Positions 1,174 through 38,256 are shown, counted from the first letter of the stretch. The stretch is 64,000 nucleotides of DNA from Candidatus Anstonellaceae archaeon (GCA_038891035.1 JAWAEW010000002.1:22476-86475); one strand, 5' to 3'. The notes: generated by a model not told the origin, from the letters alone. Numbers and translations: made by a program.

Positions 1174-1371
1174 CAGATCCTCCTCCCAACTACTGGCTTA
1201 ATATTTAAATGTTATTTTTTATGTCAAATTATGTTATGTTGTAAAATTTTATAAAACGTATAGTTAAACCGTCGAGAAAGATTAATTTTATTGGAAGAAG
1301 CAAAGCTTCGGTGTTGCGACTGATTTAAAGCGAAACGGTGCTTCAAGCCGCAAGCCGCGAAAAAAATGAGC

Positions 1372-1474
1372 GCCGACGAGGAGATTTGAACTCCTAAGCC
1401 CAAAAGGGCACTAGATTCCTCGCAGAATCTGAAGATCTCGAGTCTAGCGCATTACCAGATTCTGCCACGTCGGC
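1372..1474 (-). tRNA. tRNA-Ser (anticodon CGA) with ~20-nt intron at canonical 37/38 position
   Basis: Hand-folded from reverse complement: acceptor GCCGACG/CGTCGGC, 3-bp D-stem with 11-nt D-loop, anticodon stem CTAGA/TCTAG, loop CTCGAG[intron]A, long variable arm GCCC-TTTT-GGGC, T-arm AGGAG-TTCAAAT-CTCCT. No encoded CCA. Confidence 0.7.
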
Positions 1475-6447: not shown

Positions 6448-7485
6448 TTATGCAAGCGCCCCGACAAAACCACCTATAACTGTTTTACAGATATAGAAGA
6501 TGAAAAGAGCAGCAAGTGCAAGTGGTGGAAAATATTTTAGTCCAAAAAGTAATTTCCCCTCCGCAATTACTCCTACTAAAATAGAAGTCAATATTGCTGT
6601 TCCTACAATGATCACTATGGTAAGATCATCGATAAATTTGATGTCAAGCTTAACCTTTGGCGTGGAAAAGCCACCTATCATGCTTTGGCTGGCACCAGTG
6701 CCGATATTAGACTGTATTTTGGTGAAAACTGCAAGAAATTGAGAAGAAATTGCAAGAAGCAGTGGCAATCCAAAAACCAATATGAAAACTATAAAAATTG
6801 CATAAGTCTTGGTATTGACAATCATTTGCTTTCGCAGTTCTTCTGTTTCTCTAATTTCTTCTGCCGAAGTCTCAAGTAGATAGGCCAGCTTTCCACCTGA
6901 GCGCAAGCCGTTCTCAAAAAACAAAATTGTCCGCCGCAGGATTGAACTGTCGATTGTAGCTGTTAGTTGGCGCAATGCATCTGCAAATGATTCGCTTCCT
7001 AAAGATAAGGATGAAACATAAAGGATTTCTGACTGCAGGGGTCCAAATTCAGGCCTTGCCGCGGCTTGAAATGCAGCAAAAGGGGTCATGCCAGAGCGCA
7101 TGTTTGCTGCCACCATCAAAAGAAAATCCGGAAGGACGGCGTCCACTCTTTGAGTTCTTTCAGTTATAAGATAATAAAGGTGCATATAGATCAAGATTGC
7201 AGCAGCCAAAGCAAAGAGAATGCCCAGCCCAAAGCTTATGACAAGTTTCCCAGCCAAGGTCGGCGGATTAAGGATGGGGTATGCAGATAGGTCAAAAAAA
7301 CGGAAAATGCTGACTGGAAGAAGAGCACCAACAATTCCAAATAAGATAACTATAAGAAGACGGGAGCCAAGCCAAAGTTCTGGATTTGTTTCTATGCCAG
7401 CATAAGCAAGAAGCTGCGAGATTTTGTCTTTTGGGCGTGGCTTGAAAAATGTTGAAAATCGTTTTTCAACTAAATATTTTTTCAT
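6448..7485 (-). CDS. type II secretion/type IV pilus platform protein, TadC/FlaJ-like (T2SSF domain)
   Basis: 345 aa polytopic membrane protein with a cytoplasmic T2SSF-like segment (LPDFLLMVAANMRSGMTPFAAFQAA...). Confidence 0.6.
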   Translation of the reverse strand: MKKYLVEKRFSTFFKPRPKDKISQLLAYAGIETNPELWLGSRLLIVILFGIVGALLPVSIFRFFDLSAYPILNPPTLAGKLVISFGLGILFALAAAILIYMHLYYLITERTQRVDAVLPDFLLMVAANMRSGMTPFAAFQAAARPEFGPLQSEILYVSSLSLGSESFADALRQLTATIDSSILRRTILFFENGLRSGGKLAYLLETSAEEIRETEELRKQMIVNTKTYAIFIVFILVFGLPLLLAISSQFLAVFTKIQSNIGTGASQSMIGGFSTPKVKLDIKFIDDLTIVIIVGTAILTSILVGVIAEGKLLFGLKYFPPLALAALFIFYICKTVIGGFVGALA

Positions 7486-7492
7486 AGAACCA

Positions 7493-8407
7493 CTAATCGC
7501 TAAACAGGCTTGGTCTTTTCATTTTGACGTAAGCAATGATGGCCATCTGACCTAAAAATCCAATTCCAACAACAGCTGAAAGAACTTCTGGTGTAACACC
7601 AAGCATCCCAAATACTGAAAAAATTACGAGGACGGTTGTTCCTATAGTAGGGAGTACGGCTGCAACCATCAGATATATCAGAATTATGAAGTTGAGTTCT
7701 GCATTGAATGATTTGAAAAGCGAAAACTGGTAGTCTACCAGCAATTTGACTATGCTTCGAAGGGTAGAGGACAGATTAGCGCCTGCTCTAATTGCAGTAA
7801 CGAGTTGCCATGAGACCTTTTTGAGATAGACCGACTGAGTCTTAATGGCCATATTTTCCAGTTCTTCTAAAAGAGGACTTCCTCCCCTAACGTTATTTGC
7901 AACTTCTTTAAATGCCGGCCCTACGTACTTGTAGTTTGAGTTTCCGATGTTTTCTATCGCATTGAAAAGCGGTATTCCAGAATTCACCTGTATTAGCATA
8001 TCACGCATGACAAAAATAAGCTCATGGTCTATCTTTGCTGCAATGCTCCTTGCAATAAGGCGAGGGAAAGCCAAATGAAGCAGAAGGAAAAAAAGAAAAC
8101 TGATTGCAAAAGAAAGGAATATTATAAGACCTTTAACAGGTGAAGGAAGAGTAGGGCTCAGCGTTGCAATTACGCCCACGACAATAGATATAAGTGCGGA
8201 CCAAATTGCGGCTGAAACTGCCGCAACTCCACAATAATATTCTGCCGGAAATTCAAGACCTATAGATCTTAGGTCATATCTTATTGATGGGTAAAATGCA
8301 AGGACTTTTAAGCCGATACCTTTCAGTCGCGCTCCTAAAGTGGGGACTGATGAGATTGGTAAAAGCATGACCGGAATGCGAACCGGCTGAGTTGTCATAA
8401 GAATCAC
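7493..8407 (-). CDS. type IV pilus platform protein, TadB/FlaJ-like (T2SSF domain)
   Basis: 304 aa membrane protein with a T2SSF-like segment (IFVMRDMLIQVNSGIPLFNAIENIG...). Separate gene, 8 nt from the downstream paralog. Confidence 0.6.
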   Translation of the reverse strand: MILMTTQPVRIPVMLLPISSVPTLGARLKGIGLKVLAFYPSIRYDLRSIGLEFPAEYYCGVAAVSAAIWSALISIVVGVIATLSPTLPSPVKGLIIFLSFAISFLFFLLLHLAFPRLIARSIAAKIDHELIFVMRDMLIQVNSGIPLFNAIENIGNSNYKYVGPAFKEVANNVRGGSPLLEELENMAIKTQSVYLKKVSWQLVTAIRAGANLSSTLRSIVKLLVDYQFSLFKSFNAELNFIILIYLMVAAVLPTIGTTVLVIFSVFGMLGVTPEVLSAVVGIGFLGQMAIIAYVKMKRPSLFSD

Positions 8408-8409
8408 GG

Positions 8410-10140
8410 CTATTTTTTACTTCCAATAGCTCGCTTGGCTATTTCTAAGATTTCATTTGGCTTGCTGTAATAAAGAGACATTATTCGGCCTACTGACTCC
8501 ATATCAGAAAGCTTGTTCTCAATCATCCATCTTATAATAGTGGCCCTGTTCTTTATATCTTGGTATATTTCCTCTTTGGTCATGCCTGTATGAAGGTTAA
8601 TTTCCTTGAGGTATTTGTTTGGCTCGCCTACCATTTCAAATGTATCAGTGCGTGGGCGCCATCTGTAAATTACATTGGTTGTTATTTCCTCGTCTTTGGC
8701 ACCTGGAACTATTTCGCAAATTTCCAAGGTTCTCCTAACATTCTTCCTCCTATCACGATATTGGACTACAATAAGGTTGACTGCTTCGAGGTCAGATGGA
8801 GGAAGGCTGATTGGGGGGCTAGTAAGCCTTCTTATAGCCTGCATCCCCGTATCAGCGTGCAAAGTTGCTGCAACAGAGTGGCCTGTGTGCATAGCCTCGA
8901 ACAATACTTCAGCTTCTCTTTGCCTTCTCATTTCACCAAGCAAGATTCTATCTGGCCGCATACGAAGCGAGGTAACCATCAAATCAAGCATTGTAACTTC
9001 ACCTAAGCCTTCTGCATTTGGATTTCGAGTTAAAAGAGGTACCCAGTTCCACTGGTAATGTGGCAGCATAAGCTCTCTGGTATCCTCTATTGTGACAATA
9101 CGCTGATTTGGAGGAATAAATGATGCCAGTGCGTTCAAAGCTGTAGTTTTTCCGGATGCTGTGCCGCCTGCAACTAAGATGTTCATTTCATAATGTATTG
9201 CCTGCCACAGCATTCCTGCCATTTCCGGTGTCATGGAGTAGCCTGGTTCACCCACAAGATTTACAATTGTCCATGGATTTCTTGCAAAGCGCCTAATTGT
9301 AATTGTGTTCCCATGTGCAGAAATCGGTGCAAGAGTAGAGCAAACTCTATCTCCGGTTTCAAGCCTAGCATCCAGTATTGGTGTTAAGTTTGCAATTTGT
9401 CTCCCAACTCGGCGTGCAATTTGGGAAGAATAATTGAAGATAGATTCTTCGTCTGGCATGTAAATATTTGACTTAAGCCAGCCAAACTTGCGATGATATA
9501 CTCCAATTGGGGTTTTTGAATTGTTAATAATAATTTCCTCAAGCCAGTCATCGTGGTTGATAATCTCTATCTCTCCTAACCCAAACAACTTATGCAAAAG
9601 CATTCCAACCAGAACTTCATCAACCTCCTTTCCGAGGTGGAACTGCCGAATATAATTGGTTATCGTAAGCTTGAATTCCTCGCGTGCTTTGGCTGCTTTT
9701 TCAATATCTGAAACATCAGACTGTGCACCGGCAGGTATTGCCCGCAAAAGTTCGTCTTTTATGAGGTCCAGAAAAATCTTGGTTGCAGTACCAAACTCAA
9801 CTAAGGTCAGGATATAGTGCTTTTCTCTTTCAGTATCTAATATCATTACACTTGCTGGCACTCCATCTGCTGAAAACATATAGCTGGCCAACACCTTTCC
9901 CTTTGTTGCACCGACTTCGGGCTTTGGTGGCTCAGCCGGCAGGATCCTGAAAGATACTGTTGGCTTTTCAGTTATGCTTAATGGGTAATGCAAATCTAAG
10001 ACCCCGCCCTTTTCAAGCACTGCACAGATAAGCTCAACGGTTTCTACCGGCATGTGTAGATATTTTGAGAGAATTTCAACACTGATATTTTTTTTGCGCT
10101 GTGCAAGTGAAACAAGCTGGTCTATCTTTGTCTCAAACAT
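8410..10140 (-). CDS. type IV pilus/archaellum-family assembly ATPase (FlaI/TadA/VirB11 superfamily)
   Basis: Walker A VAGGTASGKTT, Asp box IVTIEDTRE, His box, and an N-terminal extension, as in archaeal FlaI-like ATPases. Confidence 0.85.
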   Translation of the reverse strand: MFETKIDQLVSLAQRKKNISVEILSKYLHMPVETVELICAVLEKGGVLDLHYPLSITEKPTVSFRILPAEPPKPEVGATKGKVLASYMFSADGVPASVMILDTEREKHYILTLVEFGTATKIFLDLIKDELLRAIPAGAQSDVSDIEKAAKAREEFKLTITNYIRQFHLGKEVDEVLVGMLLHKLFGLGEIEIINHDDWLEEIIINNSKTPIGVYHRKFGWLKSNIYMPDEESIFNYSSQIARRVGRQIANLTPILDARLETGDRVCSTLAPISAHGNTITIRRFARNPWTIVNLVGEPGYSMTPEMAGMLWQAIHYEMNILVAGGTASGKTTALNALASFIPPNQRIVTIEDTRELMLPHYQWNWVPLLTRNPNAEGLGEVTMLDLMVTSLRMRPDRILLGEMRRQREAEVLFEAMHTGHSVAATLHADTGMQAIRRLTSPPISLPPSDLEAVNLIVVQYRDRRKNVRRTLEICEIVPGAKDEEITTNVIYRWRPRTDTFEMVGEPNKYLKEINLHTGMTKEEIYQDIKNRATIIRWMIENKLSDMESVGRIMSLYYSKPNEILEIAKRAIGSKK

Positions 10141-10436: not shown

Positions 10437-11696
10437 ATGAGAATGACTGCAAAAGCTACATTAGCTGGGATTGCAATTGCGGCATTAATTTCATTTCCTT
10501 CATCAAAATTGAACTCGCAAATAAATGAGAATCAGATAAAAAAGAAGTTAGCAGACAAAGTTCTTGTTGAAAATTCTTCAGCTTATACTACAGAAAAATA
10601 CAAAATCTACAAAGAAGGTGTAAATTTCGTACTTTTTCCACCAGATGTAAAAGTTGAAAAAATAGAACTAAAGGAAAGAAAAGATGAAAACAAAATAACT
10701 GCCTCCGACAATACAACTGGTGGAATGAGAATTATTTATGGGGATGCTTTTTGTCAAGCATTCGTACAAAAGATTATAGAAGATTCTTTAACTGGAGGAG
10801 GGGTAGGATGGATTTCGAAAATATACCCCCTTGATTCTTTTCCTTCACACAGAAACGGAATAAACCTATTTCCTCAAGGAAGGATCATAAAAAAGACCTA
10901 TCCAAGAATTCTAATGCCCCCAAATACGGATGGCCACTATATAGCTACTCGGACTTACTATATCGAAAATATCTGGCCTCCATACCATGACAGTGTAAAT
11001 GCATATTATCAGCAAATAGCATTAAACTTGATCTTTCAGCACGGGGATAGGCCAAGTGTTTTCTTCTTTGCAGGAGATAGGGATACTACTAAGAAGGCTA
11101 CTAAAATGATTATAATAAGTATAACGCAATTTGACTCTAATGGTGTTCAGATTGTGCCGCCGGATCCAAGAGTAAGAGGCCCCCCTGTAGCGGCTGCAGA
11201 AGTAGTAAGAGATGATCACATAAATGGAACGGGAGATTTTCGGGAGATAATAATGGCTATGGGGACACTGACAGATATGCAGATTTTGGCCGATGGTAAA
11301 ATTCTCGAAGAACAGGAATTTCAAATGTTTGGAGGGATGAATGAAGATACTCTCAATTCTTTTTTTGTTCGTCCTCCGATCAAAGCAAAAGAATTCGTGA
11401 TGGGAGTAGAGGAGAAATTTGAGCTGGTGAAAGAATATAGGCTTTCACAAAACTATCCAAATCCATTCAATTCACAGACAACAATTGAGTTTTCTTTACT
11501 CAGACCAGGACGCGTAGTGATTAGAGTGTATGATATGATTGGGAGGAGAATAGCAGAGATTGTTAATGAAGAATTAAAAGATGGGACTTATCGCGTCAAC
11601 TGGAAACCACAAGCAAGTATTTCAAGTGGTACGTACATCTATGAATTGAGCAGTGATGGCTATATCGACAGGAGAAAAATGATATATATAAAATAA
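10437..11696 (+). CDS. secreted protein with C-terminal T9SS-type (Por secretion tail) sorting domain
   Basis: N-terminal signal peptide. The C-terminal 80 aa, LSQNYPNPFNSQTTIEFSL...RVYDMIGRRIAEIVNEELKDGTYRVNWK...SGTYIYEL, matches the TIGR04183/Por_Secre_tail consensus closely. Confidence 0.6.
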   Translation: MRMTAKATLAGIAIAALISFPSSKLNSQINENQIKKKLADKVLVENSSAYTTEKYKIYKEGVNFVLFPPDVKVEKIELKERKDENKITASDNTTGGMRIIYGDAFCQAFVQKIIEDSLTGGGVGWISKIYPLDSFPSHRNGINLFPQGRIIKKTYPRILMPPNTDGHYIATRTYYIENIWPPYHDSVNAYYQQIALNLIFQHGDRPSVFFFAGDRDTTKKATKMIIISITQFDSNGVQIVPPDPRVRGPPVAAAEVVRDDHINGTGDFREIIMAMGTLTDMQILADGKILEEQEFQMFGGMNEDTLNSFFVRPPIKAKEFVMGVEEKFELVKEYRLSQNYPNPFNSQTTIEFSLLRPGRVVIRVYDMIGRRIAEIVNEELKDGTYRVNWKPQASISSGTYIYELSSDGYIDRRKMIYIK

Positions 11697-11709: not shown

Positions 11710-14700
11710 TTAGGAGTTCAGTGTTGTAATGCTAACAGTAAAACCTTGGTTGTACAATGCACGTATTTCATCTTCTGAGAGTGCTCTTTTGAATATTTGG
11801 ACTTCATCGATTATGCCTTCATAAGGCTTATTGAGTGAAGGAGAATTTCCTATAATTAGTCTTGGGTAAGTCTGGCCCAGATCTCCTGAAACATCACCAG
11901 TTGCATAAAGTACTCCGTTAATGTAAATAAAGCCGACCCCATCTTTTCTGCTTACTGTGATATGGGTCCACTCGTCTGTGGCTAATTCGATGGGCGATGA
12001 TATTACTTTATTTGCTGCAATAAAGTTCAGATAACCATCTGACAACTCAAGGGCGAAGCCAGAATTCTGAATTTGGTTACTTATGATTTGGCTGGAGATT
12101 ACTGATTTGGGCTTAACCCATAAAGAAACTGTGAAATCATCTCTGCCCTGGAGCACAGGCGATGGGACCGAAAGATGGGAGAATAGAGATGTGAAGTTGT
12201 ATGCTCCACCTATTTTACCAAATGGAGTCCAGTTTGCTGAAACATTTGCATGAAGCAGAAGAGGAGAGTAATCAACCGATATTCCTTCTACTTCTCTATA
12301 ATCGAATGGCAATGAAAGTAGCGCATCAGGAAGCTGCCTTTTTAGGCGAAGCTTGGCATTATAATTTGCAGTAATATTGCTAAATGAAGCGGATGGCTTA
12401 TAAAAGACATCAAGGTCAAGGCTGCACTTGTCTTGATATAAGCCTTTGTAGTGATTTTCGATTTCCCGTTCAGATAGAGCTCTCTTATAGAACCTTATTT
12501 CATCAATCAGTCCTCTGAAACCGTTGCTTCCTGAACTATCAGATGCACCTATAAAGAATGGGGACGATGAGTTTATCCTCAAAAGGCTGAACTGACCTGA
12601 TGCAACCGATTTATCATCAAGATAGATGTTGTATTCGCCTAATCTTCTAACAGAAACTGACACCATATGCCAATTCCCATCTGATAAATCGAGTAGATGA
12701 CTTATCTGTGAAGACTGGCCACTTCCATTTGCACTATAAAATGAGATGTTGAGGAAATTAGCAGGATTCAAAAACCAATCAATCCCCTGTGCTGCCCCAA
12801 ATTCCTGTCCTAGCTGATAAAATAGCCTTGCAAAGCTTCCTTGGCCGGTATAAGGCCTTATCCATACAGACATAGTAAAATCATTGATCTCTGTAACTGA
12901 AACATCGTCTAGATAGACTACTTGGTTGTTTAGAGGTGTATAAAACCGAAGTTCAATGACTGCATTTTGAAGTGTAGAAAATGGTTGTGTGATCCTTTCA
13001 AAAGTAGTGCTTAGCTGCTTTGTGATAAATATGTCTGCACCGGGATTCAATGAATTCCACTGCCCGGAAGGCGCCAAGTACATTTGGTTTTGCACATCAA
13101 CAATTGCATATCTAATCGCATCATTTTGAAGCTCGCCTCTCGCCCAAAACTCAAGCAAATAATTCCTGTTTCCTTTCAGTGCTGAATAAAGAGCTGAACT
13201 GTAAATATACGACGAGGGATCGCTAGAGTAGATTTTAACTGAAGTCGAGCCTGACTTTACTATGTTGTGCTCTGGCTCAAATATGCCATTTCCTTGCTTT
13301 ATCCAATTGTTGAAAAGGAAGGATTGGCTGCCTACACCTGGAGGGATAATGCAGTACTTTACAGATCCGCTTGTTCTTGTTACATTGCACACTGCATTTG
13401 GATCACAGCAGGGATGAACATCGTCACAGCGAGAATTGGTTGGGAAGCAGGTTGTGCATCGCCCATAATCTTGTATTCCCTCAAAAAAGAAGGGAAGTTT
13501 TTTTATCTTGAAAAAGTAGTCGCGAGAATAGGTTTGCTGCTCTTGTTGTGCAACTGTATTTACAAGGTCACAGAAAAGCCCCTCGCAGCATTGCGTGTCA
13601 TTAGTGCAGAGGGCACCTTGCTGACCGCATGTAGGAAGAGGAGGCGCACATCTGAAGGTTTGTTCCCCGTCAAAAAGACACCTGTTTGAGCAGCATTCTG
13701 AGTGATTCCTACAGGTATGGTTGAGAGGAAGGCAGTCCACACACTTTGAGAAATTAGCAGAGGTGCTCAGTAGATCGCAAAGCCCGGAGCAACATTGACT
13801 GTTTTCAGTGCAATTGGTGGTGCTGTTCGTTTGAATGCAAACTGAGCATATCTTTTGGGATGAGCCTGCGGGTGCTGCACAAATACTGCATGTCTGCGGG
13901 CAGTCTGAAGAAATGGTGCAGCTCTGGTTGCATCCTATTCCGCATCGTGGTTGGCTTTCTTCATCTATAAAGCATCTACCACTGCAACATTCGTTGCTGG
14001 TTCCATCTTGGCAAGAGGCAAGTAACTGCCCATTTTGAAGGCAACAGATTCCGTTTAAACAGATTGAGGGGGGGCAACAAGGGATTTTGTTGTCTCCTGA
14101 ACACGGCTGGGAAGCATTTGCGCAATTTAGGTTTGTTAATTCAGCTACATTAGTAGGATTAGAACGATCAGACTTGGCAACAAGATTAGGATTGTTTTTG
14201 GCTTCTGCTTGTATGTATAATTGAACGCTTGTACCATTTTCAAACGTCGAAGTGTTCAATGGTTCTTGCTTACGATACAAAAACAAAATTGGTATTATGT
14301 TGCCCGGCCTCTGCGCAACAAAGACATATGAAATATTAATATATGGTGTGCTGTCAGGACAATTTTGTATGCAGTATACGTTGGACCCTCGAATAACAGT
14401 TGGTGTGGGTGAAATAATTGGAGTGGGTGGTTTTTTAGGTTTGCAAACTCCATTCTCGCATCTTAATCCTATCGTTTTATCGCTATCACAGCAATCAGAA
14501 TCCTTAGTACATTGTTGCCCTCCTTGTGAGCATGCAGAACACCTTCCATTAATGCAAACTGAATTCGAACAGCAATCAGAATCTCTGAGACAGCCATAAG
14601 TCCCACGTGGCCAGCAAGGAACACACTTGCCATCTCTCATCATATAGAACTTAACTGAGCTTGAAGACGGGATTGCAGACCATGGTTGGCGCTCCTCTTC

Positions 14701-15468
14701 ACCTAAAAGGCATTTGCCGGAACAGCATTCAGAATGATAAGAACAGTTTTGCCCATTAGGAATGCATGAACATATGCCATTTATGCACATGGAACTTATA
14801 CAGCAATCAGCATCTGAGCTGCAAGGCCCGTATCCTCTTGGCCAGCATGAAACACATGTACCATTGAGGGGAGTTTCGACGAGCTTTGCAAGCCCAGAAA
14901 AAAGATTTTCTGATGATAAAAACGCCCCACCATCATTGTTGGTGCGTATAAGACATTTGGAAGAGCAGCAATCATTATTTGATTGACAGACTGCACCTTG
15001 TCCTTTGCATGTGGATGTGCTATCCCAGTGACAACCCACTGCTACACATACAGTTTCGTTATAAATGGAAGTGCATGGTAGAGATGGCCCACTGCTTACA
15101 TCATCACATGGAAATGCTGTAAAAGCATTAAATCTGCAATACCCTCCTGCAATATTGCATGCACCAGCCGGATTGTGACTTTTAGAGGCACAGTCGGCTT
15201 CATTTAGAGAAGAACAGAGAGTTGGAGCTGTACCGCTTGCACATGTACAATTGTTTGTCACTAGCTCATATCTCAGATTGCAATATCCTCGCAATTCAAA
15301 TTCGTAGCAAACCGAGGGATAATCGATCGGACCGCATCCGTCGGATGTACACCATGGGTGATTTAGGGAAGTACAGCTTACGTTAGGAGAATTTTGGTTT
15401 TGCGGCACGCAGCCAGCAAAAATGGCTGAAGAAAGCAATCCAAACAGCAACAAAGACAACATTCTCAT
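11710..15468 (-). CDS. 1252-aa surface protein: lipobox signal, repeated knottin-like 6-Cys modules, Pro/Thr linker, two C-terminal LamG_3 (ConA-like lectin) domains
   Basis: MRMLSLLLFGLLSSAIFAGC lipobox. At least 6 repeats with the pattern C-x6-C-x5-CC-x4-C-x4-C (e.g. CWPRGTYGCLRDSDCCSNSVCINGRC). Two LamG_3 signature motifs (IDEIRFYKRALSEREI and IDEVQIFKRALSEDEI). Confidence 0.7.
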   Translation of the reverse strand: MRMLSLLLFGLLSSAIFAGCVPQNQNSPNVSCTSLNHPWCTSDGCGPIDYPSVCYEFELRGYCNLRYELVTNNCTCASGTAPTLCSSLNEADCASKSHNPAGACNIAGGYCRFNAFTAFPCDDVSSGPSLPCTSIYNETVCVAVGCHWDSTSTCKGQGAVCQSNNDCCSSKCLIRTNNDGGAFLSSENLFSGLAKLVETPLNGTCVSCWPRGYGPCSSDADCCISSMCINGICSCIPNGQNCSYHSECCSGKCLLGEEERQPWSAIPSSSSVKFYMMRDGKCVPCWPRGTYGCLRDSDCCSNSVCINGRCSACSQGGQQCTKDSDCCDSDKTIGLRCENGVCKPKKPPTPIISPTPTVIRGSNVYCIQNCPDSTPYINISYVFVAQRPGNIIPILFLYRKQEPLNTSTFENGTSVQLYIQAEAKNNPNLVAKSDRSNPTNVAELTNLNCANASQPCSGDNKIPCCPPSICLNGICCLQNGQLLASCQDGTSNECCSGRCFIDEESQPRCGIGCNQSCTISSDCPQTCSICAAPAGSSQKICSVCIQTNSTTNCTENSQCCSGLCDLLSTSANFSKCVDCLPLNHTCRNHSECCSNRCLFDGEQTFRCAPPLPTCGQQGALCTNDTQCCEGLFCDLVNTVAQQEQQTYSRDYFFKIKKLPFFFEGIQDYGRCTTCFPTNSRCDDVHPCCDPNAVCNVTRTSGSVKYCIIPPGVGSQSFLFNNWIKQGNGIFEPEHNIVKSGSTSVKIYSSDPSSYIYSSALYSALKGNRNYLLEFWARGELQNDAIRYAIVDVQNQMYLAPSGQWNSLNPGADIFITKQLSTTFERITQPFSTLQNAVIELRFYTPLNNQVVYLDDVSVTEINDFTMSVWIRPYTGQGSFARLFYQLGQEFGAAQGIDWFLNPANFLNISFYSANGSGQSSQISHLLDLSDGNWHMVSVSVRRLGEYNIYLDDKSVASGQFSLLRINSSSPFFIGASDSSGSNGFRGLIDEIRFYKRALSEREIENHYKGLYQDKCSLDLDVFYKPSASFSNITANYNAKLRLKRQLPDALLSLPFDYREVEGISVDYSPLLLHANVSANWTPFGKIGGAYNFTSLFSHLSVPSPVLQGRDDFTVSLWVKPKSVISSQIISNQIQNSGFALELSDGYLNFIAANKVISSPIELATDEWTHITVSRKDGVGFIYINGVLYATGDVSGDLGQTYPRLIIGNSPSLNKPYEGIIDEVQIFKRALSEDEIRALYNQGFTVSITTLNS

Positions 15469-15497: not shown

Positions 15498-16991
15498 CTA
15501 TCCGCTAGAGCCACCCACACTATAATATTGTTCAAACCCGCCGTTTAATCCTGAAGATTGCTTAAGTGAAACGGCATCATAAATCACGTCGCCGCTTTCT
15601 GCTGCAAAAAACTTCAAAGTAACTTCAGATGATCCAAGTGGAAGCAGGAATTCTTTAGTGATTCGGATAAAGTCAGAGTTGACACCTGTCTCGAATAGAT
15701 GTTCTGATGAATCCCAACTTCCGTCTGCTTGAAGGTATTTTCCCTTGCTTCTGTCAAAGATAGAGTATTTGCCGTTTTGGCCTTGCGAAAGAAACTGGAG
15801 TGTATAAAATGAGTTTTCGGATAAGTAAACATTTTGATAGATATAAAAATCAACACTTGCATAGCCTTGTGGATTGGAGATCTCTGCTGCCCAATTGTTT
15901 TGTATCAAAGCAGGGCCGATGTAAACATCTTCTGGGTAGTTGTTTTCAACCACCCATGAAGGCCAAATGTTTGGAGGAATTCCATTTCTATCTTCAAAAT
16001 CTCCGTTTGAAACAAGCTCTGAGCCTTGCGGAAAGATTATTTCTGTTTCGGTGAGTGAGAAGTTATTTCGGTACATGTATTGATTTCCTGTAAATTCCAT
16101 GCAGCCTTGGCTTTTGCAGGAAAGTTTGAAGAGGGGCGTGTTCTGTCCGCCTCCTACTGTAAAATCAAGGCCATAAAGAGAATAATCACGTACTTTCATA
16201 TTTGAAGCAGGCGAATCAAGCGGAAGTACAAGAGCTCCAGATGGGCTTTTCGTATAAGATATGGAAGTATAATTTCTTGAAAGCAATCCTGAGAAATTAG
16301 AAACAAACAGAAGAATTGTGCCATCAGGATATGAAATTTGCAAGGTTGCAATATGGTTTGACACCGGTGTATTGGTGAATCTTGTTTTTGTGCCGATATT
16401 ATCTACATATTTGAGATTATAATAGAGGTTGTCAGAACCTGCCTGACCACCAGAAACAGAAAAGGCACCGATGTTGGTTGCACTTTTTGAGCAGTTTACG
16501 GTGGCGTATATTGAGATGGGCTGCCAACCCAGAGGATGGTAATAAATTATCACATCGTTTGGGCCATCGTTGCTATAAAACAGACCTCCTGACTCTGAAA
16601 TATTCATAATAAATGCATTGCTTCCGTTTATCCAAGAAACCAAAATAGCTTCAACTCCGCTATTTCTCAGATTTTCAGGTAAGGTGGCTGCATACTCATA
16701 GAGATTTGCAATTGGATGGCCTTCTTTTTTGAATGGGAGGGTAGATGAAACTGTTAAATGTATAGAAGATTGGGTTTTTCTAATATCTGCCTTTGTCCCA
16801 AGTACAGCAGCAAGGTCAGAAGATACTTGTTCTTCTATCCTTGCAATTTCAGATGGCAAGAGTTCAGTAAATGCGGTTCTTTGGCTTTTTCGCCACTCCT
16901 GCGAAAATAGAGCCATTCCGATAAGCGTAATTGACAGAATTAGTATTGATATGGTAAAAGTGAAACCTTTCGGAAGCTTTCTTTTGGTCAT
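15498..16991 (-). CDS. pilin-like protein with class III-type signal peptide and CBM4_9-like carbohydrate-binding module
   Basis: N-terminus KRKLPKG|FTFTISILILSITLIGMALF fits the [KR]G-hydrophobic prepilin pattern. NGDFE and NGGFE motifs with an aromatic-rich beta region resemble CBM_4_9. Confidence 0.45.
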   Translation of the reverse strand: MTKRKLPKGFTFTISILILSITLIGMALFSQEWRKSQRTAFTELLPSEIARIEEQVSSDLAAVLGTKADIRKTQSSIHLTVSSTLPFKKEGHPIANLYEYAATLPENLRNSGVEAILVSWINGSNAFIMNISESGGLFYSNDGPNDVIIYYHPLGWQPISIYATVNCSKSATNIGAFSVSGGQAGSDNLYYNLKYVDNIGTKTRFTNTPVSNHIATLQISYPDGTILLFVSNFSGLLSRNYTSISYTKSPSGALVLPLDSPASNMKVRDYSLYGLDFTVGGGQNTPLFKLSCKSQGCMEFTGNQYMYRNNFSLTETEIIFPQGSELVSNGDFEDRNGIPPNIWPSWVVENNYPEDVYIGPALIQNNWAAEISNPQGYASVDFYIYQNVYLSENSFYTLQFLSQGQNGKYSIFDRSKGKYLQADGSWDSSEHLFETGVNSDFIRITKEFLLPLGSSEVTLKFFAAESGDVIYDAVSLKQSSGLNGGFEQYYSVGGSSG

Positions 16992-17049: not shown

Positions 17050-18090
17050 TTATTTTCCACGATACCAGCCACGAATGATAACAAAACCATAATCATTTTG
17101 AAGCTGATTGGTATTTTTTGCAAATGGGACAGTTAGAGATTGGATCTCTCCACCTCCATACAGGCATCCAGGTCTGTTGACCATGTATAAAATATTTTCA
17201 GGATTGCTGTAAAGAAGCTGCACTTCTTGATGAGAAAGAACACGGTCGTAAAGGCGCACTTCATCCAAAATGCTGTCGCTGTTGAATCCTATTTGGAGAG
17301 GGTTGTTATTACTATTTGGTGCCATGGCAAAATCATCAGTGTCTGCCGCAGTTCCATCTACATAAAGAGTAGCCACTCCTTCTATATCAAAAGTTGCAAC
17401 GATGTGATGCCAGTTGCCATCAGCAATATATGGTCCCTCCAACCATGATTCATCAGATGAAAATATGTGGAAAAAGACGTTTCCTTCTTCAGTAATGCCA
17501 ACAGAATATTTTTCCTCAAATGAAAATAATAATTGTTGATTGCCAATATTTTGACTTTTAACCCATAGAGAGACTGAAAAACTTTCTTGCTCAAAAAGAG
17601 GAGAAAACTGAACTGTTCCGTATGTTGTAGAAGAGAAATGAATGGCCCCGCCCGCTTTCCCATTTTGGACAAATATAGGGGATCCGATTAAAATCCCAAA
17701 AAGTCTGTTTGGAGTGGAGTCATAGATGATCGAACCTGCCACTTCATCAAGCTTCCAATATCCTACAAGACCATCCGCAAGCTGATTGCTAAAACCAACC
17801 ACCTCTATGCAAATTGAAGGAGAAGTCGCACTTAACACCTCTCTTATGGAAGCCGTGGTCTGTGTTAGGTCTTGTGGAGGAGAGAGTAGGCCCTTTTTTG
17901 AAAGCACTGTTGCAACATCTTGTAAGTAAGTTCTCAAAAGCTGGGTTTTAAAGTCTGAATCTTGAGTGTTGCCATAGAAAGTAAAGGCAATAAAGGTGGC
18001 CAGTATAATCATGAATATTGAGATTGCTGCATCAAGACTGAGGAATACTCCCCTTAGCCTCGAGTTAGAGATTTTCATTTTTTCTTCCAT
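17050..18090 (-). CDS. pilin-like protein with C-terminal LamG_3 lectin domain
   Basis: N-terminus SRLRG|VFLSLDAAISIFMIILATF is pilin-like. C-terminal motif ILDEVRLYDRVLSHQEVQLLY is the LamG_3 signature. Confidence 0.55.
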   Translation of the reverse strand: MEEKMKISNSRLRGVFLSLDAAISIFMIILATFIAFTFYGNTQDSDFKTQLLRTYLQDVATVLSKKGLLSPPQDLTQTTASIREVLSATSPSICIEVVGFSNQLADGLVGYWKLDEVAGSIIYDSTPNRLFGILIGSPIFVQNGKAGGAIHFSSTTYGTVQFSPLFEQESFSVSLWVKSQNIGNQQLLFSFEEKYSVGITEEGNVFFHIFSSDESWLEGPYIADGNWHHIVATFDIEGVATLYVDGTAADTDDFAMAPNSNNNPLQIGFNSDSILDEVRLYDRVLSHQEVQLLYSNPENILYMVNRPGCLYGGGEIQSLTVPFAKNTNQLQNDYGFVIIRGWYRGK

Positions 18091-18596
18091 ATCTGAACCC
18101 GAACTCTGACAATCTTATCATCCAAAATTGCAAGCCTTTCAGCACTGGATATCTTGGAATTAGTATAATCAGGTTCTAACCCGAAAGAATAAAGCAAGCT
18201 GCCCGAATCTGCATCGATTACACTCAGATAAATATCGAATGGCCCTGCACCCATCTTTTCCTTTACCAAATCATAATATCCGTTCATGGGCGACAGTGCG
18301 GAAAGTTTAGATGGCGAAAGAACATTTCGTGATGAAGCAAAACCGAAAGCATTGGCTTTGAGAAAATCGTCATTTTCCCAATCAGAAGGAACTCCCGAAG
18401 AAAGCACAAACATATCTGATATCCCTACCAAAATAGTTTGCATATCATGCATCGATTGCTCTTCATAATATGAATTTGAAACTAAATTCCATGAAAAAAG
18501 AAAAATTGCAAGAGCTGCAACAAATATTGCAGACGATATTACAAGCTCTGTAGAAAGCATTTGGCCAAGTGTTGAAGAAAATTTGGATTTACCCAT
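18075..18596 (-). CDS. minor pilin-like protein
   Basis: 173 aa. N-terminus LGQMLSTELVISSAIFVAALAIF has G-Q-x-x-S-x-E followed by a hydrophobic helix. Confidence 0.4.
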   Translation of the reverse strand: MGKSKFSSTLGQMLSTELVISSAIFVAALAIFLFSWNLVSNSYYEEQSMHDMQTILVGISDMFVLSSGVPSDWENDDFLKANAFGFASSRNVLSPSKLSALSPMNGYYDLVKEKMGAGPFDIYLSVIDADSGSLLYSFGLEPDYTNSKISSAERLAILDDKIVRVRVQIWKKK

Positions 18597-18601
18597 ACTG
18601 C

Positions 18602-18994
18602 TTACGCCTCGTATATGTAAATGACATTATCCCTATTTTCTATTATTATTTGGGTGTTGAGTGGAACAGAAGAGGACTGAGTCATGTTTGTAGTCAGTGG
18701 AACGGAATAAAGGCCATTTGCTGAATATCGAACAGTTACAAATTGTCCTTTAACCGAAATATCAACTATATTTTCACTCGCTGTAGTTGAAAGGAAAATC
18801 TTTGTAGAATTTCCTCCGGCCGCAGCGCGGTTTATCGCAAGCGCCAATTTGTTTGCCACTGACCCAGCCTCGAGCAATTGCTTTTGTCTTTCCCATAAGG
18901 CCTGCAGATTCTGGTTTGCAATATAGATAATAAAAAGGATAAACGCCATTACTGCTGCAATCACAACCAATTCAACTGAAAGCTGTCCTTTCAT
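18602..18994 (-). CDS. archaeal type IV pilin (class III signal peptide)
   Basis: MKGQLSVELVVIAAVMAFILFIIY is the canonical KG|Q-x-S-x-E prepilin motif. 130 aa. Confidence 0.6.
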   Translation of the reverse strand: MKGQLSVELVVIAAVMAFILFIIYIANQNLQALWERQKQLLEAGSVANKLALAINRAAAGGNSTKIFLSTTASENIVDISVKGQFVTVRYSANGLYSVPLTTNMTQSSSVPLNTQIIIENRDNVIYIYEA

Positions 18995-18998
18995 ATTT

Positions 18999-19784
18999 TC
19001 AACCTATTTCAAAGCTTACAGGAACAATAAAAAACTCCTCCCTGCATTCTTGCACGCATGATGGATGGCGTAGTGAAGTATTTATTAATAGATTCCAATT
19101 ATAGACGCCTCCCGCATCAACTGAAGGTTGGAAGATGATACTAACGATTGCTCTGCTTCCAGCAGTTTGAAAAGATGAAGGAAAAATTGCAAGAGGAACT
19201 TTTTGATATTCATTGAAAGCTTGGATATTAATCTCCAAGTTATCAGAAGATGAAGGGATTATTTCCAGCGAAGCTGAAGAAGGTTGCCCTTTTTTGCCTT
19301 TATGATAAATTATGGAAGGCTGGATTTCAACCAGGCTTGCCCCAATAGATACATAAGAACCAAAGGAAATAACTTTGATTTGATAAGTTCCAGGCGAAGA
19401 AGGGAATACTCCAGAAAGAGGTGCTAGAGTGCTTGCAGAATAGTCTGAGCCAGCTACATGAAGGTTGATAATATTGTTTGAAAGCACCGAAAAATCTAGC
19501 GGTTTTCCAATATAGCTTTTTTTGAGAGAAAGATTCGCAGAAGGAGGGATTGTAATACTGACAATTTTAGTAGCTCCTTTTCCTTCTGCGTAAACACTAT
19601 CTGCCGCATTGGCAAGTGTTTGCACTGTCTCTTTTGCCAACTTGGCATCTTTCTGGACGCTAACATCAAACAAAAGATTCGAAGATAGGACCGTAAAAGT
19701 CAAAAGAATGAGAAGAAGAATGCCAAGAACCGAGATCAGCTCTGCAGACGCTTGGGCAGAGAGGACTTGGAAAAATCTATGCAT
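18999..19784 (-). CDS. pilin-like beta-rich protein, paralog of 19821-20576
   Basis: N-terminus LSAQASAELISVLGILLLIL is pilin-like. The body aligns with the neighbour (VYAEGKGATKIVSITIPP...KSYIGKP vs VYAQGAGASVIVEIFLPP...KTYIGKP). Confidence 0.45.
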   Translation of the reverse strand: MHRFFQVLSAQASAELISVLGILLLILLTFTVLSSNLLFDVSVQKDAKLAKETVQTLANAADSVYAEGKGATKIVSITIPPSANLSLKKSYIGKPLDFSVLSNNIINLHVAGSDYSASTLAPLSGVFPSSPGTYQIKVISFGSYVSIGASLVEIQPSIIYHKGKKGQPSSASLEIIPSSSDNLEINIQAFNEYQKVPLAIFPSSFQTAGSRAIVSIIFQPSVDAGGVYNWNLLINTSLRHPSCVQECREEFFIVPVSFEIG

Positions 19785-19820
19785 AGAGTAAGAATACAGA
19801 TTTTATTTTAAATTCTTTCA

Positions 19821-20576
19821 TTAGCGCACTTCTACAGTAACTGGAACCGTAAATGATTGGTTTCCTATTTCTGAGCTCACAAAAATTTCCATATTCAAAT
19901 TATAAATTCCCTCTGCGTTATTATTTGCGGCTATTGACACCAAAAACTGAGTGGGTTCGACCTGAAGCTCGCTGGAAGAGGGAGAAACGTTGATGGATAT
20001 ATCTGAGGGCACCCACGGTAAGTAAATAGATGCAAATGCTAAAGAAGAAATCTTCTTTTCCAGAACTATTGATTCGTTCCTGATTTCTCCCTTTGCCATG
20101 CTAACAAATACTGATGGTCTGCTGATAGAGGCGATATATGGCACAATGAACACTTGCCCTCCTTTTGAAAACAAGTACATTTTGTGGGAGCCGCTTTTAG
20201 TCGGAAAAGAACCGGCCAGATTTGCCTGTGTAGATGCAAAGATATCGCTTTGTCCTACTCGCATATTAATGGTCTTTGGGAGTATGAAGGATGAGACATT
20301 TGCAGGCTTGCCTATATATGTTTTGTTAGGATTAAAATCGATTGTCGGAGGTAGAAAAATTTCAACTATTACTGATGCTCCAGCTCCTTGCGCATAAACC
20401 GTATCTGCTGCAATTGCAAGTCTTCTTACTGAATCATAGGCAAGTTTTTCGTTCTTTTCAATTGAAGCTTCGGATAAAAATGAAAGAGAAAGAGACATGA
20501 ATATGAGAACAACTAAAAGTGAAATTCCCATTATAGTGATAAGTTCTGTTGCTACTTGGCCTATTTTGCTATGCAT
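19821..20576 (-). CDS. pilin-like beta-rich protein, paralog of 18999-19784; first gene of the pilus operon
   Basis: N-terminus KIGQVATELITIMGISLLVV is G-Q-x-x-T-E plus a hydrophobic helix. Paralogy as described for the neighbour. Confidence 0.45.
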   Translation of the reverse strand: MHSKIGQVATELITIMGISLLVVLIFMSLSLSFLSEASIEKNEKLAYDSVRRLAIAADTVYAQGAGASVIVEIFLPPTIDFNPNKTYIGKPANVSSFILPKTINMRVGQSDIFASTQANLAGSFPTKSGSHKMYLFSKGGQVFIVPYIASISRPSVFVSMAKGEIRNESIVLEKKISSLAFASIYLPWVPSDISINVSPSSSELQVEPTQFLVSIAANNNAEGIYNLNMEIFVSSEIGNQSFTVPVTVEVR

Positions 20577-31793: not shown

Positions 31794-31894
31794 CGCCGAC
31801 GAGGAGATTTGAACTCCTAAGCCCGAAAAGGGCACCAGATTTCCTGCTTTCGCAGTCTCAAGTCTGGCGCATTACCAGGTTCTGCCACGTCGGC
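31794..31894 (-). tRNA. tRNA-Ser (anticodon UGA) with ~16-nt intron at 37/38
   Basis: Same architecture as the tRNA at 1372-1474. Anticodon stem CCAGA/TCTGG, loop CTTGAG[intron]A, long variable arm GCCC-TTTTC-GGGC, T-arm AGGAG-TTCAAAT-CTCCT. Confidence 0.7.
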
Positions 31895-38156: not shown

Positions 38157-38256
38157 TGCGGAGAGGAGGATTTGTTCTGCTATAATTGAACCCCCGCAGC
38201 CACTAGGGCACAGGGTCCTAAGCCCTGCGCATTTGACCAGGCTCTGCCATCTCCGC
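38157..38256 (-). tRNA. tRNA-Leu (anticodon UAG) with ~14-nt non-canonical intron in the T-loop
   Basis: Acceptor GCGGAGA/TCTCCGC, anticodon arm CAGGG-CTTAGGA-CCCTG, long variable arm. T-stem GGGGG...CCTCC encloses 21 nt (TTCAATT plus a 14-nt insert) instead of a 7-nt loop. The upstream half is closely similar to the intron-less tRNA-Leu at 42253. Confidence 0.55.

What the first reader, a model, noticed from the sequence alone, without database searches (positions are those of the whole stretch)
11710..15468. 1252-aa lipobox protein made of tandem knottin-like 6-Cys modules plus two LamG lectin domains
The N-terminus ends in the lipobox-like FAGC. At least six repeats then follow with spacing C-x6-C-x5-CC-x4-C-x4-C, which is the inhibitor-cystine-knot spacing; this is rare in prokaryotes. 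After a Pro/Thr linker come about 450 aa with two LamG_3 signature motifs (IDEIRFYKRALSEREI and IDEVQIFKRALSEDEI). It sits in the pilus operon between the pilins and the assembly ATPase, and I take it for a disulfide-stabilised adhesin or tip protein. The Cys repeats could also act as protease-inhibitor-like or toxin-like modules.
Basis: partly seen in the sequence, partly recalled or inferred. Interest (0 to 1): 0.75.

Follow-up and report, generated by a model that had tools for sequence, protein, structure and literature searches.

The report
Archaeal pilus-locus adhesin with knottin-like stalk
A tiny symbiotic archaeon (Micrarchaeota) encodes, inside its pilus gene cluster, a large secreted protein with a stalk of about a dozen disulfide "mini-knot" modules carrying three sugar-binding-type domains; it is most likely a host-attachment adhesin, and such knot modules have hardly been reported in archaea.

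Summary
The 1252-aa ORF (11710-15468, minus strand) is real and under purifying selection (dN/dS 0.18 against a 94%-identical ortholog, with none of 91 Cys changed).

A relaxed form, C-x6-9-C-x5/7-CC-x3-9-C-x4-37-C, occurs 11 times against 0.4 expected by shuffling. A profile of 79 such modules from the family hits only inhibitor-cystine-knot peptides in the PDB (best E=2.8e-6). An AF2 two-module model (pLDDT 82) matches knottins and colipase, but only weakly. The knot topology itself could not be checked.

The C-terminus is a CBM-like beta-sandwich plus two Laminin_G_3 jelly rolls (Pfam E=1.8e-50; Foldseek E=4.6e-12).

The lipobox is not a family trait: a 60%-type ortholog has R at position -1, and most relatives have plain Sec signals.

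The gene is a conserved member of a Micrarchaeota type IV pilus locus. In one relative it is fused to the upstream pilin-like gene.

Best reading: a secreted, pilus-associated lectin adhesin on a rigid knottin-like stalk. A toxin or protease-inhibitor role is unsupported.

LamG proteins at DPANN pilus loci are already known. The knottin-like array is the new part.

The parts
15409..15468 (-). Signal peptide (aa 1-20), ending IFAGC. It is lipobox-compatible by pattern, but cleavage by signal peptidase I after (A/I)FA is more likely.
   Evidence: Sequence. N-termini of relatives: P0002 LAFAGAQ, L005 AIANAEN, L033 LAFARC, and others lack a lipobox.
15010..15408 (-). N-terminal Cys-rich region (aa 21-153) with 15 Cys in a different spacing. 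Unassigned. It is the most divergent part of the protein.
   Evidence: Cys positions. No Pfam or PDB match. 12.4% amino-acid differences from the L003 ortholog.
14443..15009 (-). Knottin-like array A: 5 modules (aa 154-342), with 1-2 residues between modules.
   Evidence: Pfam on this block alone: Dickkopf_N 33.6 bits, UPF0506 25.8 bits, Conotoxin_I2, Omega-toxin. PDB 1axh E=0.0021.
14392..14442 (-). Pro/Thr-rich linker (aa 343-359, KPKKPPTPIISPTPTVI).
   Evidence: Sequence.
14125..14391 (-). Cys-poor middle domain (aa 360-448, 2 Cys). Presumed small beta domain; unassigned.
   Evidence: Conserved in P0001 and L033. No Pfam hit.
13351..14124 (-). Knottin-like array B: 6 modules plus one variant 6-Cys module at aa 513-541 (aa 449-706 overall). 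All Cys from 464 to 694 are invariant in three homologs.
12865..13350 (-). CBM-like beta-sandwich (aa ~707-868), homologous to the C-terminal domain of the upstream 497-aa ORF.
   Evidence: BLASTP E=3e-7. Weak CBM_4_9 hits in relatives. All-beta AF2 model with pLDDT ~85-90.
12415..12864 (-). Laminin_G_3 domain 1 (aa ~869-1018).
   Evidence: Pfam. AF2 plus Foldseek to laminin LG, neurexin LNS and TeNT Hc.
11740..12318 (-). Laminin_G_3 domain 2 (aa ~1051-1243).
   Evidence: Pfam best stretch aa 1097-1235..
15498..16991 (-). Upstream 497-aa partner gene with a pilin-like N-terminus (PKGFTFTISILIL...) and a C-terminal CBM-like domain. It is fused to the Cys/LamG protein in P0001.
17050..18090 (-). 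346-aa modular pilin-like protein carrying a Laminin_G_3 domain.
   Evidence: Pfam E=2.3e-24. N-terminus.
18075..20576 (-). Four small ORFs (173, 130, 261 and 251 aa) with pilin-like N-termini: G/A-Q-x-x-x-E, with Glu at +5 or +6, then a hydrophobic helix.
   Evidence: Sequences. Pfam Class_IIIsignal is only weak (E=0.24), so this rests on inspection and context.
6448..10140 (-). Pilus assembly genes: T2SSE-type ATPase (8410-10140) and two T2SSF/FlaJ-like membrane proteins (7493-8407, 6448-7485).
10437..11696 (+). Convergent 419-aa ORF with a signal peptide and a Por_Secre_tail (T9SS C-terminal) domain, lying between the adhesin and the ATPase.
   Evidence: Pfam and TIGR04183 above cut-off. 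Also present in L003 and L034.

Best explanation
The gene encodes a Sec-secreted, extracellular adhesin belonging to a conserved Micrarchaeota type IV pilus locus.

The business end is a C-terminal head of three beta-sandwich domains: one CBM-like and two Laminin_G_3 / ConA-like. This head most likely binds glycans or a surface protein on the host cell.

The head is held away from the cell or pilus by a stalk of about 12 tightly concatenated knottin-like modules, each with 6 Cys and joined by only 0-2 residues. Their disulfides would make a thin, rigid spacer resistant to heat and proteases.

The protein has no pilin N-terminus of its own. I infer that it docks onto the upstream 497-aa pilin-like protein. 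In one relative the two are a single polypeptide, so there the adhesin is presented directly by the pilus, probably at the tip, because such a bulky module cannot fit in the shaft.

Shown here: the domain composition, the conservation, the locus membership and the fusion. Inferred: disulfide formation and knot topology, ligand binding, docking to the pilin, and tip location.
For: - Real gene under constraint: dN/dS is 0.18 overall and 0.11-0.26 in every region. There are 80 amino-acid changes against the L003 ortholog and none at Cys.
- Head: Laminin_G_3 twice, E=1.8e-50. Foldseek to laminin LG, neurexin LNS and TeNT/BoNT Hc reaches E=4.6e-12, with 375 hits at E<=0.001. The CBM-like domain is supported.
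- Architecture is conserved. A search with the Cys region alone found 8 proteins among 1.84e9 representatives. The 7 that were scanned all carry two LamG_3 domains downstream; P0007 was left out of that scan but aligns over the whole C-terminal half.
- Locus: the same gene order (4 small pilin-like genes, LamG-pilin, CBM-pilin-like gene, Cys/LamG ORF, ATPase, 2 x T2SSF, ThrRS, ArgG) occurs in L003, L005, L033, L034 and L035.
- Fusion: P0001/L002 joins the homolog of the 497-aa ORF (E=1e-40) to the Cys/LamG protein (E=3e-143) in one ORF that is followed by the ATPase.
- N-glycosylation sequons: 24 against 14.9 +/- 3.5 expected.
- Precedents: LamG proteins are linked to T4P loci in the micrarchaeon Mia14 (PMC5498576). 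S. sanguinis PilC is a tip-located modular pilin with a ConA-like lectin module (PMC9934059).
Against: - There is no experimental datum.
- The protein lacks a class III signal peptide, and the fusion is seen in only one of about 10 relatives, so attachment to the pilus is inferred rather than shown.
- A convergent gene separates it from the ATPase.
- No ligand-binding residues were identified in the LamG or CBM-like domains.
- Whether a Micrarchaeote in a (probably anoxic, hot-spring) habitat can oxidise about 45 disulfides outside the cell is unknown.
Confidence: 0.6

Rival explanations
1. It is a membrane-anchored surface lipoprotein or cell-envelope adhesin. The FAGC lipobox is used, Cys20 is lipidated, and the protein projects from the cell surface independently of the pilus. 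The locus association would then reflect co-regulation only.
For: - IFAGC fits the permissive lipobox pattern, is followed by a polar 11-residue stretch, and is kept in the 94% ortholog.
- L034 has IWGGC.
- Myxococcota proteins built of the same modules are clear lipoproteins.
- The protein lacks a pilin N-terminus.
Against: - The L033 ortholog has LAFARC, and Arg at -1 is incompatible with a lipobox.
- P0002, L005/P0008, P0006, P0009, P0011, P0012 and P0013 have ordinary Sec signals without a lipobox.
- In P0001 the protein is fused behind a pilin-like protein with no internal signal peptide.
- With Cys20 removed, the Cys count of the N-terminal region becomes odd.
Confidence: 0.2
2. The knottin-like modules are the active part. 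They would act as toxin-like or protease-inhibitor-like units, either on the intact protein or after release, targeting host membrane proteins or proteases. The lectin domains would only deliver them.
For: - Sequence resemblance to venom ICK toxins and weakly to squash trypsin inhibitors.
- Tandem ICK toxins exist, such as DkTx and Xt3a.
Against: - Modules are separated by 0-2 residues (C-x-x-C junctions) with no dibasic or other processing sites.
- Only the Cys scaffold and a short CCSG-type motif are conserved. Loop 5 varies from 3 to 37 residues, and no reactive-site loop is conserved.
- Module number varies widely between relatives (4-17, plus one truncated representative with a single module), while the lectin head is constant. 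That pattern fits a spacer better than an effector.
Confidence: 0.07
3. The Cys residues are not disulfide-bonded in vivo but instead bind metals or minerals, giving a thiol-rich extracellular protein for metal or sulfide surfaces in a reducing hot-spring habitat.
For: - Cys makes up 7.3% of the protein.
- The closest MAG name (SRBZ) matches a Tengchong hot-spring site code. That habitat may be reducing.
Against: - The spacing and profile match disulfide-knotted peptides exclusively.
- Cys come in strict multiples of six per module.
- AF2 folds the modules confidently as compact knottin-like units.
- No His or Asp co-ligand pattern is present.
Confidence: 0.05

Closest known systems
Inhibitor cystine knot (knottin) mini-proteins, especially tandem forms (double-knot toxin DkTx, remipede Xt3a; 'SCREPs', PMC6262176)
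   Same: - Six-Cys framework C-C-CC-C-C with similar loop lengths.
- Profile-level sequence similarity (E=2.8e-6 to Xt3a, E=0.002 to omega-atracotoxin Hv1).
- Predicted compact fold that superposes on knottins.
- Modules occur in tandem behind a signal peptide.
   Different: - Here 11-12 modules (4-17 in relatives) are fused end to end, with 0-2 residue linkers, inside a 1252-aa multidomain surface protein of an archaeon.
- Long insertions of up to 37 residues occur in the last loop.
- There is no evidence that the modules act as free peptides.
- Knot connectivity is untested.
- The KNOTTIN database paper (2017, PMC5753296) stated that knottins were absent from archaea.
LamG-domain proteins linked to type IV pilus loci in DPANN archaea (Mia14, Micrarchaeota; Golyshina et al. 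2017, PMC5498576)
   Same: Same phylum, same association of LamG jelly-roll proteins with T4P gene clusters, and the same proposed role in host-cell interaction.
   Different: In the passages I read, that paper describes the LamG expansion and its T4P linkage, with no mention of a Cys-knot array, a CBM-like domain or a fusion to a pilin-like gene.
Streptococcus sanguinis PilC: a modular type IV minor pilin with an Ig-like module and a ConA-like lectin module, located at the pilus tip (PMC9934059)
   Same: - A ConA-like lectin module presented by a type IV pilus for adhesion.
- Neighbouring genes in this window (346-aa LamG-pilin, 497-aa CBM-pilin-like) have exactly that modular-pilin layout.
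- The P0001 relative makes the whole Cys/LamG protein a C-terminal module of a pilin-like protein.
   Different: - The 1252-aa protein in this window has a Sec-type signal peptide, not a class III one.
- It is an archaeal rather than bacterial system.
- The spacer is a knottin-like array rather than a single Ig-like domain.
- Glycan binding has not been shown.
Colipase / Dickkopf cysteine-rich domains
   Different: Matches cover only the C-terminal half of the Dickkopf_N profile (positions 21-51 of 51). The units here are 6-Cys repeats, not 10-Cys domains. No functional link is implied.
Tandem Cys-module lipoproteins of Myxococcota (unnamed; loci L014, L016, L020, L021, L023, L024, L027, L032)
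   Same: Same module type. The archaeal module HMM finds 9-13 copies per protein, with E down to 1.5e-28. The spacing is the same C-x6-C-x5-CC-x3-C-x4-5-C.
   Different: They are bacterial, carry clear lipoboxes, have no LamG or CBM head and no pilus context, and show much more regular short loops.

Membership tests
Knottin / inhibitor cystine knot | Six Cys in the framework C-C-CC-C-C with short loops | tested here: met
   11 modules, against 0.39 expected by shuffling. 79-80 modules in the family, with modal spacing 6/5/0/3-4/4-11.
Knottin / inhibitor cystine knot | Sequence or profile similarity to structurally proven ICK peptides | tested here: met
   The profile A4 against PDB sequences gave 47 hits at E<=1, all ICK, the best at 2.8e-6. 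Single-sequence hit 1axh at E=0.0021.
Knottin / inhibitor cystine knot | Compact fold with a small antiparallel beta-sheet that superposes on knottins | tested here: inconclusive
Knottin / inhibitor cystine knot | Disulfide pairing I-IV, II-V, III-VI, with III-VI threading the ring | not testable with these tools
   Model coordinates are not exposed, and there are no experimental data.
Laminin_G_3 / ConA-like lectin-glucanase superfamily | Pfam PF13385 match above the gathering score | tested here: met
   171.4 bits against a cut-off of 27.6, in two stretches.
Laminin_G_3 / ConA-like lectin-glucanase superfamily | Jelly-roll beta-sandwich fold | tested here: met
   AF2 (pLDDT 78.8) is all-beta. 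Foldseek to laminin LG, neurexin LNS and TeNT Hc reaches E=4.6e-12.
Laminin_G_3 / ConA-like lectin-glucanase superfamily | Carbohydrate or Ca2+ binding | not tested
   No binding-site analysis or experiment was done.
Prokaryotic lipoprotein (lipobox) | [LVI][ASTVI][GAS]C at the end of a signal peptide, conserved among orthologs | tested here: not met
   The window and L003 have IFAGC, with F at -3, which fits the permissive pattern only. L033 has LAFARC, and most relatives have no Cys there.
Type IV pilin (class III signal peptide) | Short leader, G/A cleavage site, Glu+5 and a ~20-residue hydrophobic N-terminal helix | tested here: not met
   The N-terminus MRMLSLLLFGLLSSAIFAGC is a Sec-type signal. 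The six upstream ORFs do have pilin-like N-termini, and P0001 is fused to one.
TafC (haloarchaeal Tat-fimbria subunit, NF052521) | Whole-protein score above the NCBIfam cut-off | tested here: not met
   67.3 bits against a cut-off of 410. The match covers the LamG part only.
Dickkopf_N | Full-length match to the 10-Cys domain | tested here: not met
   Only profile positions 21-51 of 51 matched, repeatedly. On the whole protein the score is below cut-off (17.7 against 25).

The most novel reading that the evidence does not exclude
These are genuine cystine-knot (knottin) domains in Archaea, a domain of life from which knottins were reported absent. They have been repurposed as a modular, length-variable, hyper-stable stalk. 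A type IV pilus uses this stalk to present a lectin head to the host cell of an obligate archaeal symbiont. The same module is shared with Myxococcota lipoproteins, implying inter-domain transfer of a knottin building block.
Probability: 0.35. Interest if true: 0.7.

Novelty: new variant of a known kind. Interest (0 to 1): 0.55.

Why it matters
Micrarchaeota and other DPANN archaea live attached to host cells, and the molecules that make this contact are largely unknown. This locus gives a concrete, conserved candidate: a pilus gene cluster whose largest product combines lectin-type heads with a disulfide-knotted stalk.

If the modules are true knottins, three things follow:
- The fold's known range extends to Archaea.
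- It would show a structural (spacer) use of a fold best known from toxins and inhibitors.
- It would offer a natural, heat-adapted tandem-knottin scaffold.

It also flags an annotation problem. Public gene calls truncate the Cys-rich halves of the orthologs, calling 618 and 679 aa where the ORFs are 1464 and 1268 aa. That may explain why the family has gone unnoticed.

Tried and rejected
- The search for homologous proteins with the 32-column module profile found nothing. This reflects a limit of the word index on short Cys modules and is not evidence of absence. The module's presence in Myxococcota was instead shown with an HMM search on fetched loci.
- Pfam Class_IIIsignal on the six upstream N-termini gave only one weak hit (E=0.24). 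Their pilin status therefore rests on motif inspection and context.
- PDB sequence searches for the N-terminal region (aa 21-153) and for the variant module (aa 509-545) found nothing meaningful. Pfam found nothing for aa 346-448 or 708-875.
- TafC membership was rejected, because the match is to the LamG part only.
- Dickkopf_N membership was rejected, because only part of the profile matches.
- A 2026 preprint on 'CysRReps' mentions Myxococcota and Micrarchaeota. It does not give the repeat pattern in its text, so I could not decide whether it is the same module.
- Model coordinates are not exposed, so disulfide connectivity could not be read from the AF2 model.
Full report
**Observation**

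A GAGGA Shine-Dalgarno-like motif lies 6 nt upstream of the ATG, and there is a 29-nt gap to the preceding gene. The protein has 91 Cys (7.3%), 90 of them between residues 20 and 706.

A relaxed six-Cys pattern, C-x6-9-C-x5/7-CC-x3-9-C-x4-37-C, occurs 11 times, starting at aa 154, 208, 235, 285, 313, 449, 476, 544, 579, 614 and 674. Shuffles of aa 21-707 gave a mean of 0.39 and a maximum of 3 in 2000 trials. Consecutive modules are separated by only 0-2 residues, except where another domain intervenes.

The window is archaeal: several tRNAs carry introns and there is an ATP-dependent DNA ligase. The flanking 497-aa ORF is identical to NCBI protein QXN37_00785 of a Candidatus Anstonellaceae (Micrarchaeota) MAG.

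**Anatomy**

In order along the protein:
- Signal peptide, aa 1-20.
- An unassigned region with 15 Cys, aa 21-153.
- Knottin-like array A, five modules, aa 154-342.
- Pro/Thr linker, aa 343-359.
- A Cys-poor domain of about 89 aa, aa 360-448.
- Knottin-like array B, aa 449-706: six modules plus a different but invariant 6-Cys module at aa 513-541.
- A CBM-like beta-sandwich, aa ~707-868.
- Laminin_G_3 domain 1, aa ~869-1018.
- Laminin_G_3 domain 2, aa ~1051-1243.

More than half of the Cys modules and a further domain lie in between.

**Are the modules knottin-like?**

Evidence at three levels points the same way.

1. Sequence.
   - Array A alone hits only knottin-type Pfam families: Dickkopf_N 33.6 bits, UPF0506 25.8 bits, Conotoxin_I2 and Omega-toxin.
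   - It also hits omega-atracotoxin-Hv1 in the PDB at E=0.0021, aligning CIPNGQNCSYHSECCSGKC with CIPSGQPCPYNENCCSQSC.
2. Profile.
   - An HMM of 79 modules from ten family proteins (alignment A4) gave 47 PDB sequences at E<=1, every one an ICK peptide. The best is the double-ICK remipede toxin Xt3a at E=2.8e-6.
   - Scanning the modules one by one against Pfam gave only knottin-toxin families, Dickkopf_N and one Dumpy hit.
3. Fold.
   - AF2 on the two-module unit aa 541-610 gave mean pLDDT 82.1.
   - About 24 of 32 Foldseek matches in the PDB are ICK peptides (atracotoxin, maurocalcin, SOTI-III, Aps III, hanatoxin, DkTx). Most of the others are colipase, Dkk or MIT1, and a few are unrelated P2X7 receptor entries. 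TM-scores are 0.5-0.8 normalised to the target, but all E>=0.37.

These fold scores are weak in absolute terms, as expected for 30-residue domains. The defining I-IV/II-V/III-VI threaded connectivity could not be read, because coordinates are not exposed. I therefore call the modules knottin-like with good sequence support and unverified topology.

**C-terminal half**

Laminin_G_3 matches twice at E=1.8e-50. An AF2 model of aa 708-1252, built from a 10-sequence family alignment, is all-beta with three domains (pLDDT 78.8). Its Foldseek hits are laminin LG pairs, neurexin LNS domains and the lectin-like Hc-N domain of tetanus and botulinum toxins, with E down to 4.6e-12 and 375 hits at E<=0.001. 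The ConA-like jelly-roll prediction is therefore met.

The first of the three domains (aa ~717-860) is homologous to the C-terminal domain of the upstream 497-aa ORF (E=3e-7). In relatives that upstream-type domain weakly matches CBM_4_9.

**Lipobox**

IFAGC fits only the permissive lipobox pattern, and it is retained in the 94% ortholog. Elsewhere the evidence is against it:
- The next closest ortholog (L033) has LAFARC followed by the same VPxxQNSPNxSC. Arg at -1 is incompatible with a lipobox.
- P0002 has LAFAGAQ, with no Cys at the site.
- L005/P0008, P0006, P0009, P0011, P0012 and P0013 have plain Sec signal peptides.
- L034 has IWGGC, which is ambiguous.

The recurring (A/I)-F-A suggests cleavage by signal peptidase I. 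I regard lipidation as possible in this lineage but not supported as a family feature.

**Context and relatives**

Upstream on the same strand are six ORFs with short polar leaders, a G/A-Q/F/V junction, Glu at +5 or +6 in four of them, and a hydrophobic helix. One carries Laminin_G_3 (346 aa) and one carries the CBM-like domain (497 aa). Downstream are a T2SSE ATPase and two T2SSF/FlaJ-like proteins.

The same order occurs in five other Micrarchaeota contigs (L003, L005, L033, L034, L035). That order is: DNA ligase (divergent), four small pilin-like genes, LamG-pilin, CBM-pilin-like gene, the big Cys/LamG ORF, ATPase, two T2SSF genes, ThrRS, ArgG.

In P0001/L002 the homolog of the 497-aa ORF (E=1e-40) and the Cys/LamG protein (E=3e-143) form one continuous ORF with no internal signal peptide, followed directly by the ATPase. 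This fusion is the main argument that the two products work as one physical unit.

In the window, and in L003 and L034, a convergent Por_Secre_tail gene lies between the adhesin and the ATPase.

**Family size**

A phmmer search with only the Cys region (aa 154-707) against 1.84 billion representatives returned 8 proteins at E<=1e-3. The seven that were scanned all carry two Laminin_G_3 domains after the Cys array. The eighth, P0007, was not scanned because of the residue limit, but it aligns over the whole CBM-like and LamG half of the window protein. N-terminal parts vary, with beta-helix/NosD domains in two. The module number ranges from 4 to 17, apart from the truncated representative P0010, which has one.

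So a small, apparently Micrarchaeota-specific family has a constant head and a variable stalk.

The module type itself is not unique to archaea. The archaeal module HMM finds 9-13 tandem copies in Myxococcota / 'Deltaproteobacteria' lipoproteins, with E down to 1.5e-28.

**Selection**

Against the L003 ortholog, dN/dS is 0.18 overall and 0.11-0.26 in each region. There are 80 amino-acid differences and none at a Cys, where about 6 would be expected by composition. N-x-S/T sequons number 24, against 14.9 +/- 3.5 in shuffles. This is a functional, probably glycosylated extracellular protein.

**Mechanism (inferred)**

The CBM-like and LamG head binds a host-surface ligand. The concatenated knottin-like modules form a thin, rigid, disulfide-locked stalk whose length evolves by gaining and losing modules. 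The protein is exported by Sec and associates with the bulky 497-aa pilin-like protein; in P0001 it is covalently part of it. That partner, like other modular pilins, can only sit at the pilus tip, following the logic of S. sanguinis PilC (PMC9934059).

The MAG of the closest relative carries the site code SRBZ, which several papers use for a Tengchong hot spring. Heat stability may therefore be the selective reason for the cystine-rich stalk. This last point is inference from a sample name only.

**Comparison with what is known, and novelty**

LamG proteins expanded in DPANN and linked to type IV pilus loci were already noted for the micrarchaeon Mia14 (PMC5498576). Lectin-bearing modular pilins are established in bacteria. 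Tandem knottins exist in animal venoms and as 'SCREPs' (PMC6262176).

What appears new is a long knottin-like array as a structural element of an archaeal pilus-locus adhesin. The KNOTTIN database paper stated in 2017 that knottins were still absent from archaea (PMC5753296). I found no paper describing this family. I therefore rate it a new variant of a known kind, of moderate interest. The main caveats are unverified knot topology and unverified attachment to the pilus.

Noticed in passing
window 10437-11696 (+): A 419-aa secreted protein with a Por_Secre_tail / T9SS type A sorting domain (TIGR04183, 36 bits against a cut-off of 23) in an archaeal genome. It is convergent with the adhesin gene and sits between it and the pilus ATPase. 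The same gene is in L003 and, at the same position, in L034. L033 has one on the other side of the locus. T9SS is a Bacteroidota system, so the role of this domain here is unexplained.
   Followed up: partly
L033 10539-14345 and L034 10567-14961: Public gene calls for the orthologs are truncated to 679 aa and 618 aa (the latter is P0010), while the uninterrupted ORFs are 1268 aa and 1464 aa. The Cys-rich N-terminal halves are therefore missing from protein databases, which makes the family look smaller than it is.
   Followed up: yes
L014, L016, L020, L021, L023, L024, L027, L032 (Myxococcota / Deltaproteobacteria MAGs): Lipoproteins that consist almost entirely of 9-13 tandem copies of the same C-x6-C-x5-CC-x3-C-x4-5-C module (13-17% Cys). 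No dedicated Pfam family exists; they score on Conotoxin_I2 (up to 76.8 bits). This may be an inter-domain shared module.
   Followed up: partly
window 13846-13932 (aa 513-541 of the protein): A different 6-Cys mini-module (C-x3-C-x5-C-x3-C-x2-C-x10-C; GCNQSCTISSDCPQTCSICAAP...C). Its Cys are invariant in the three aligned homologs, and the motif recurs in the other family proteins by inspection. It has no match in the PDB or Pfam.
   Followed up: partly
window 15010-15408 (aa 21-153): An N-terminal region with 15 Cys and a recurring C-[ST]-S-[LI]-x(4)-C motif. It is present only in the closest orthologs (L003, L033), is the fastest-evolving part (12.4% amino-acid differences, dN/dS 0.26), and has no detectable homologs. 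It is a candidate docking region for the pilin partner.
   Followed up: no
window 1371-1474, 31794-31894, 38157-38256 (all minus strand): Three tRNA hits of about 100 nt found by Rfam but not by ARAGORN. They are presumably intron-containing archaeal tRNAs. Three further tRNAs, two of them 86-88 nt long, are called by both tools.
   Followed up: no
L034 17755-18536: A Polbeta/HepT-like toxin-antitoxin pair is inserted between the adhesin region and the ATPase gene in this relative. This suggests the interval is a hotspot for insertions.
   Followed up: no
P0002 aa ~840-1701; P0006 aa ~60-830 and P0011 aa ~830-1785: Family members carry extra modules. P0002 has a second, different Cys-rich repeat region after the LamG pair. 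P0006 and P0011 carry right-handed beta-helix / NosD-like regions. The conserved stalk-plus-head cassette is thus combined with other surface modules.
   Followed up: no
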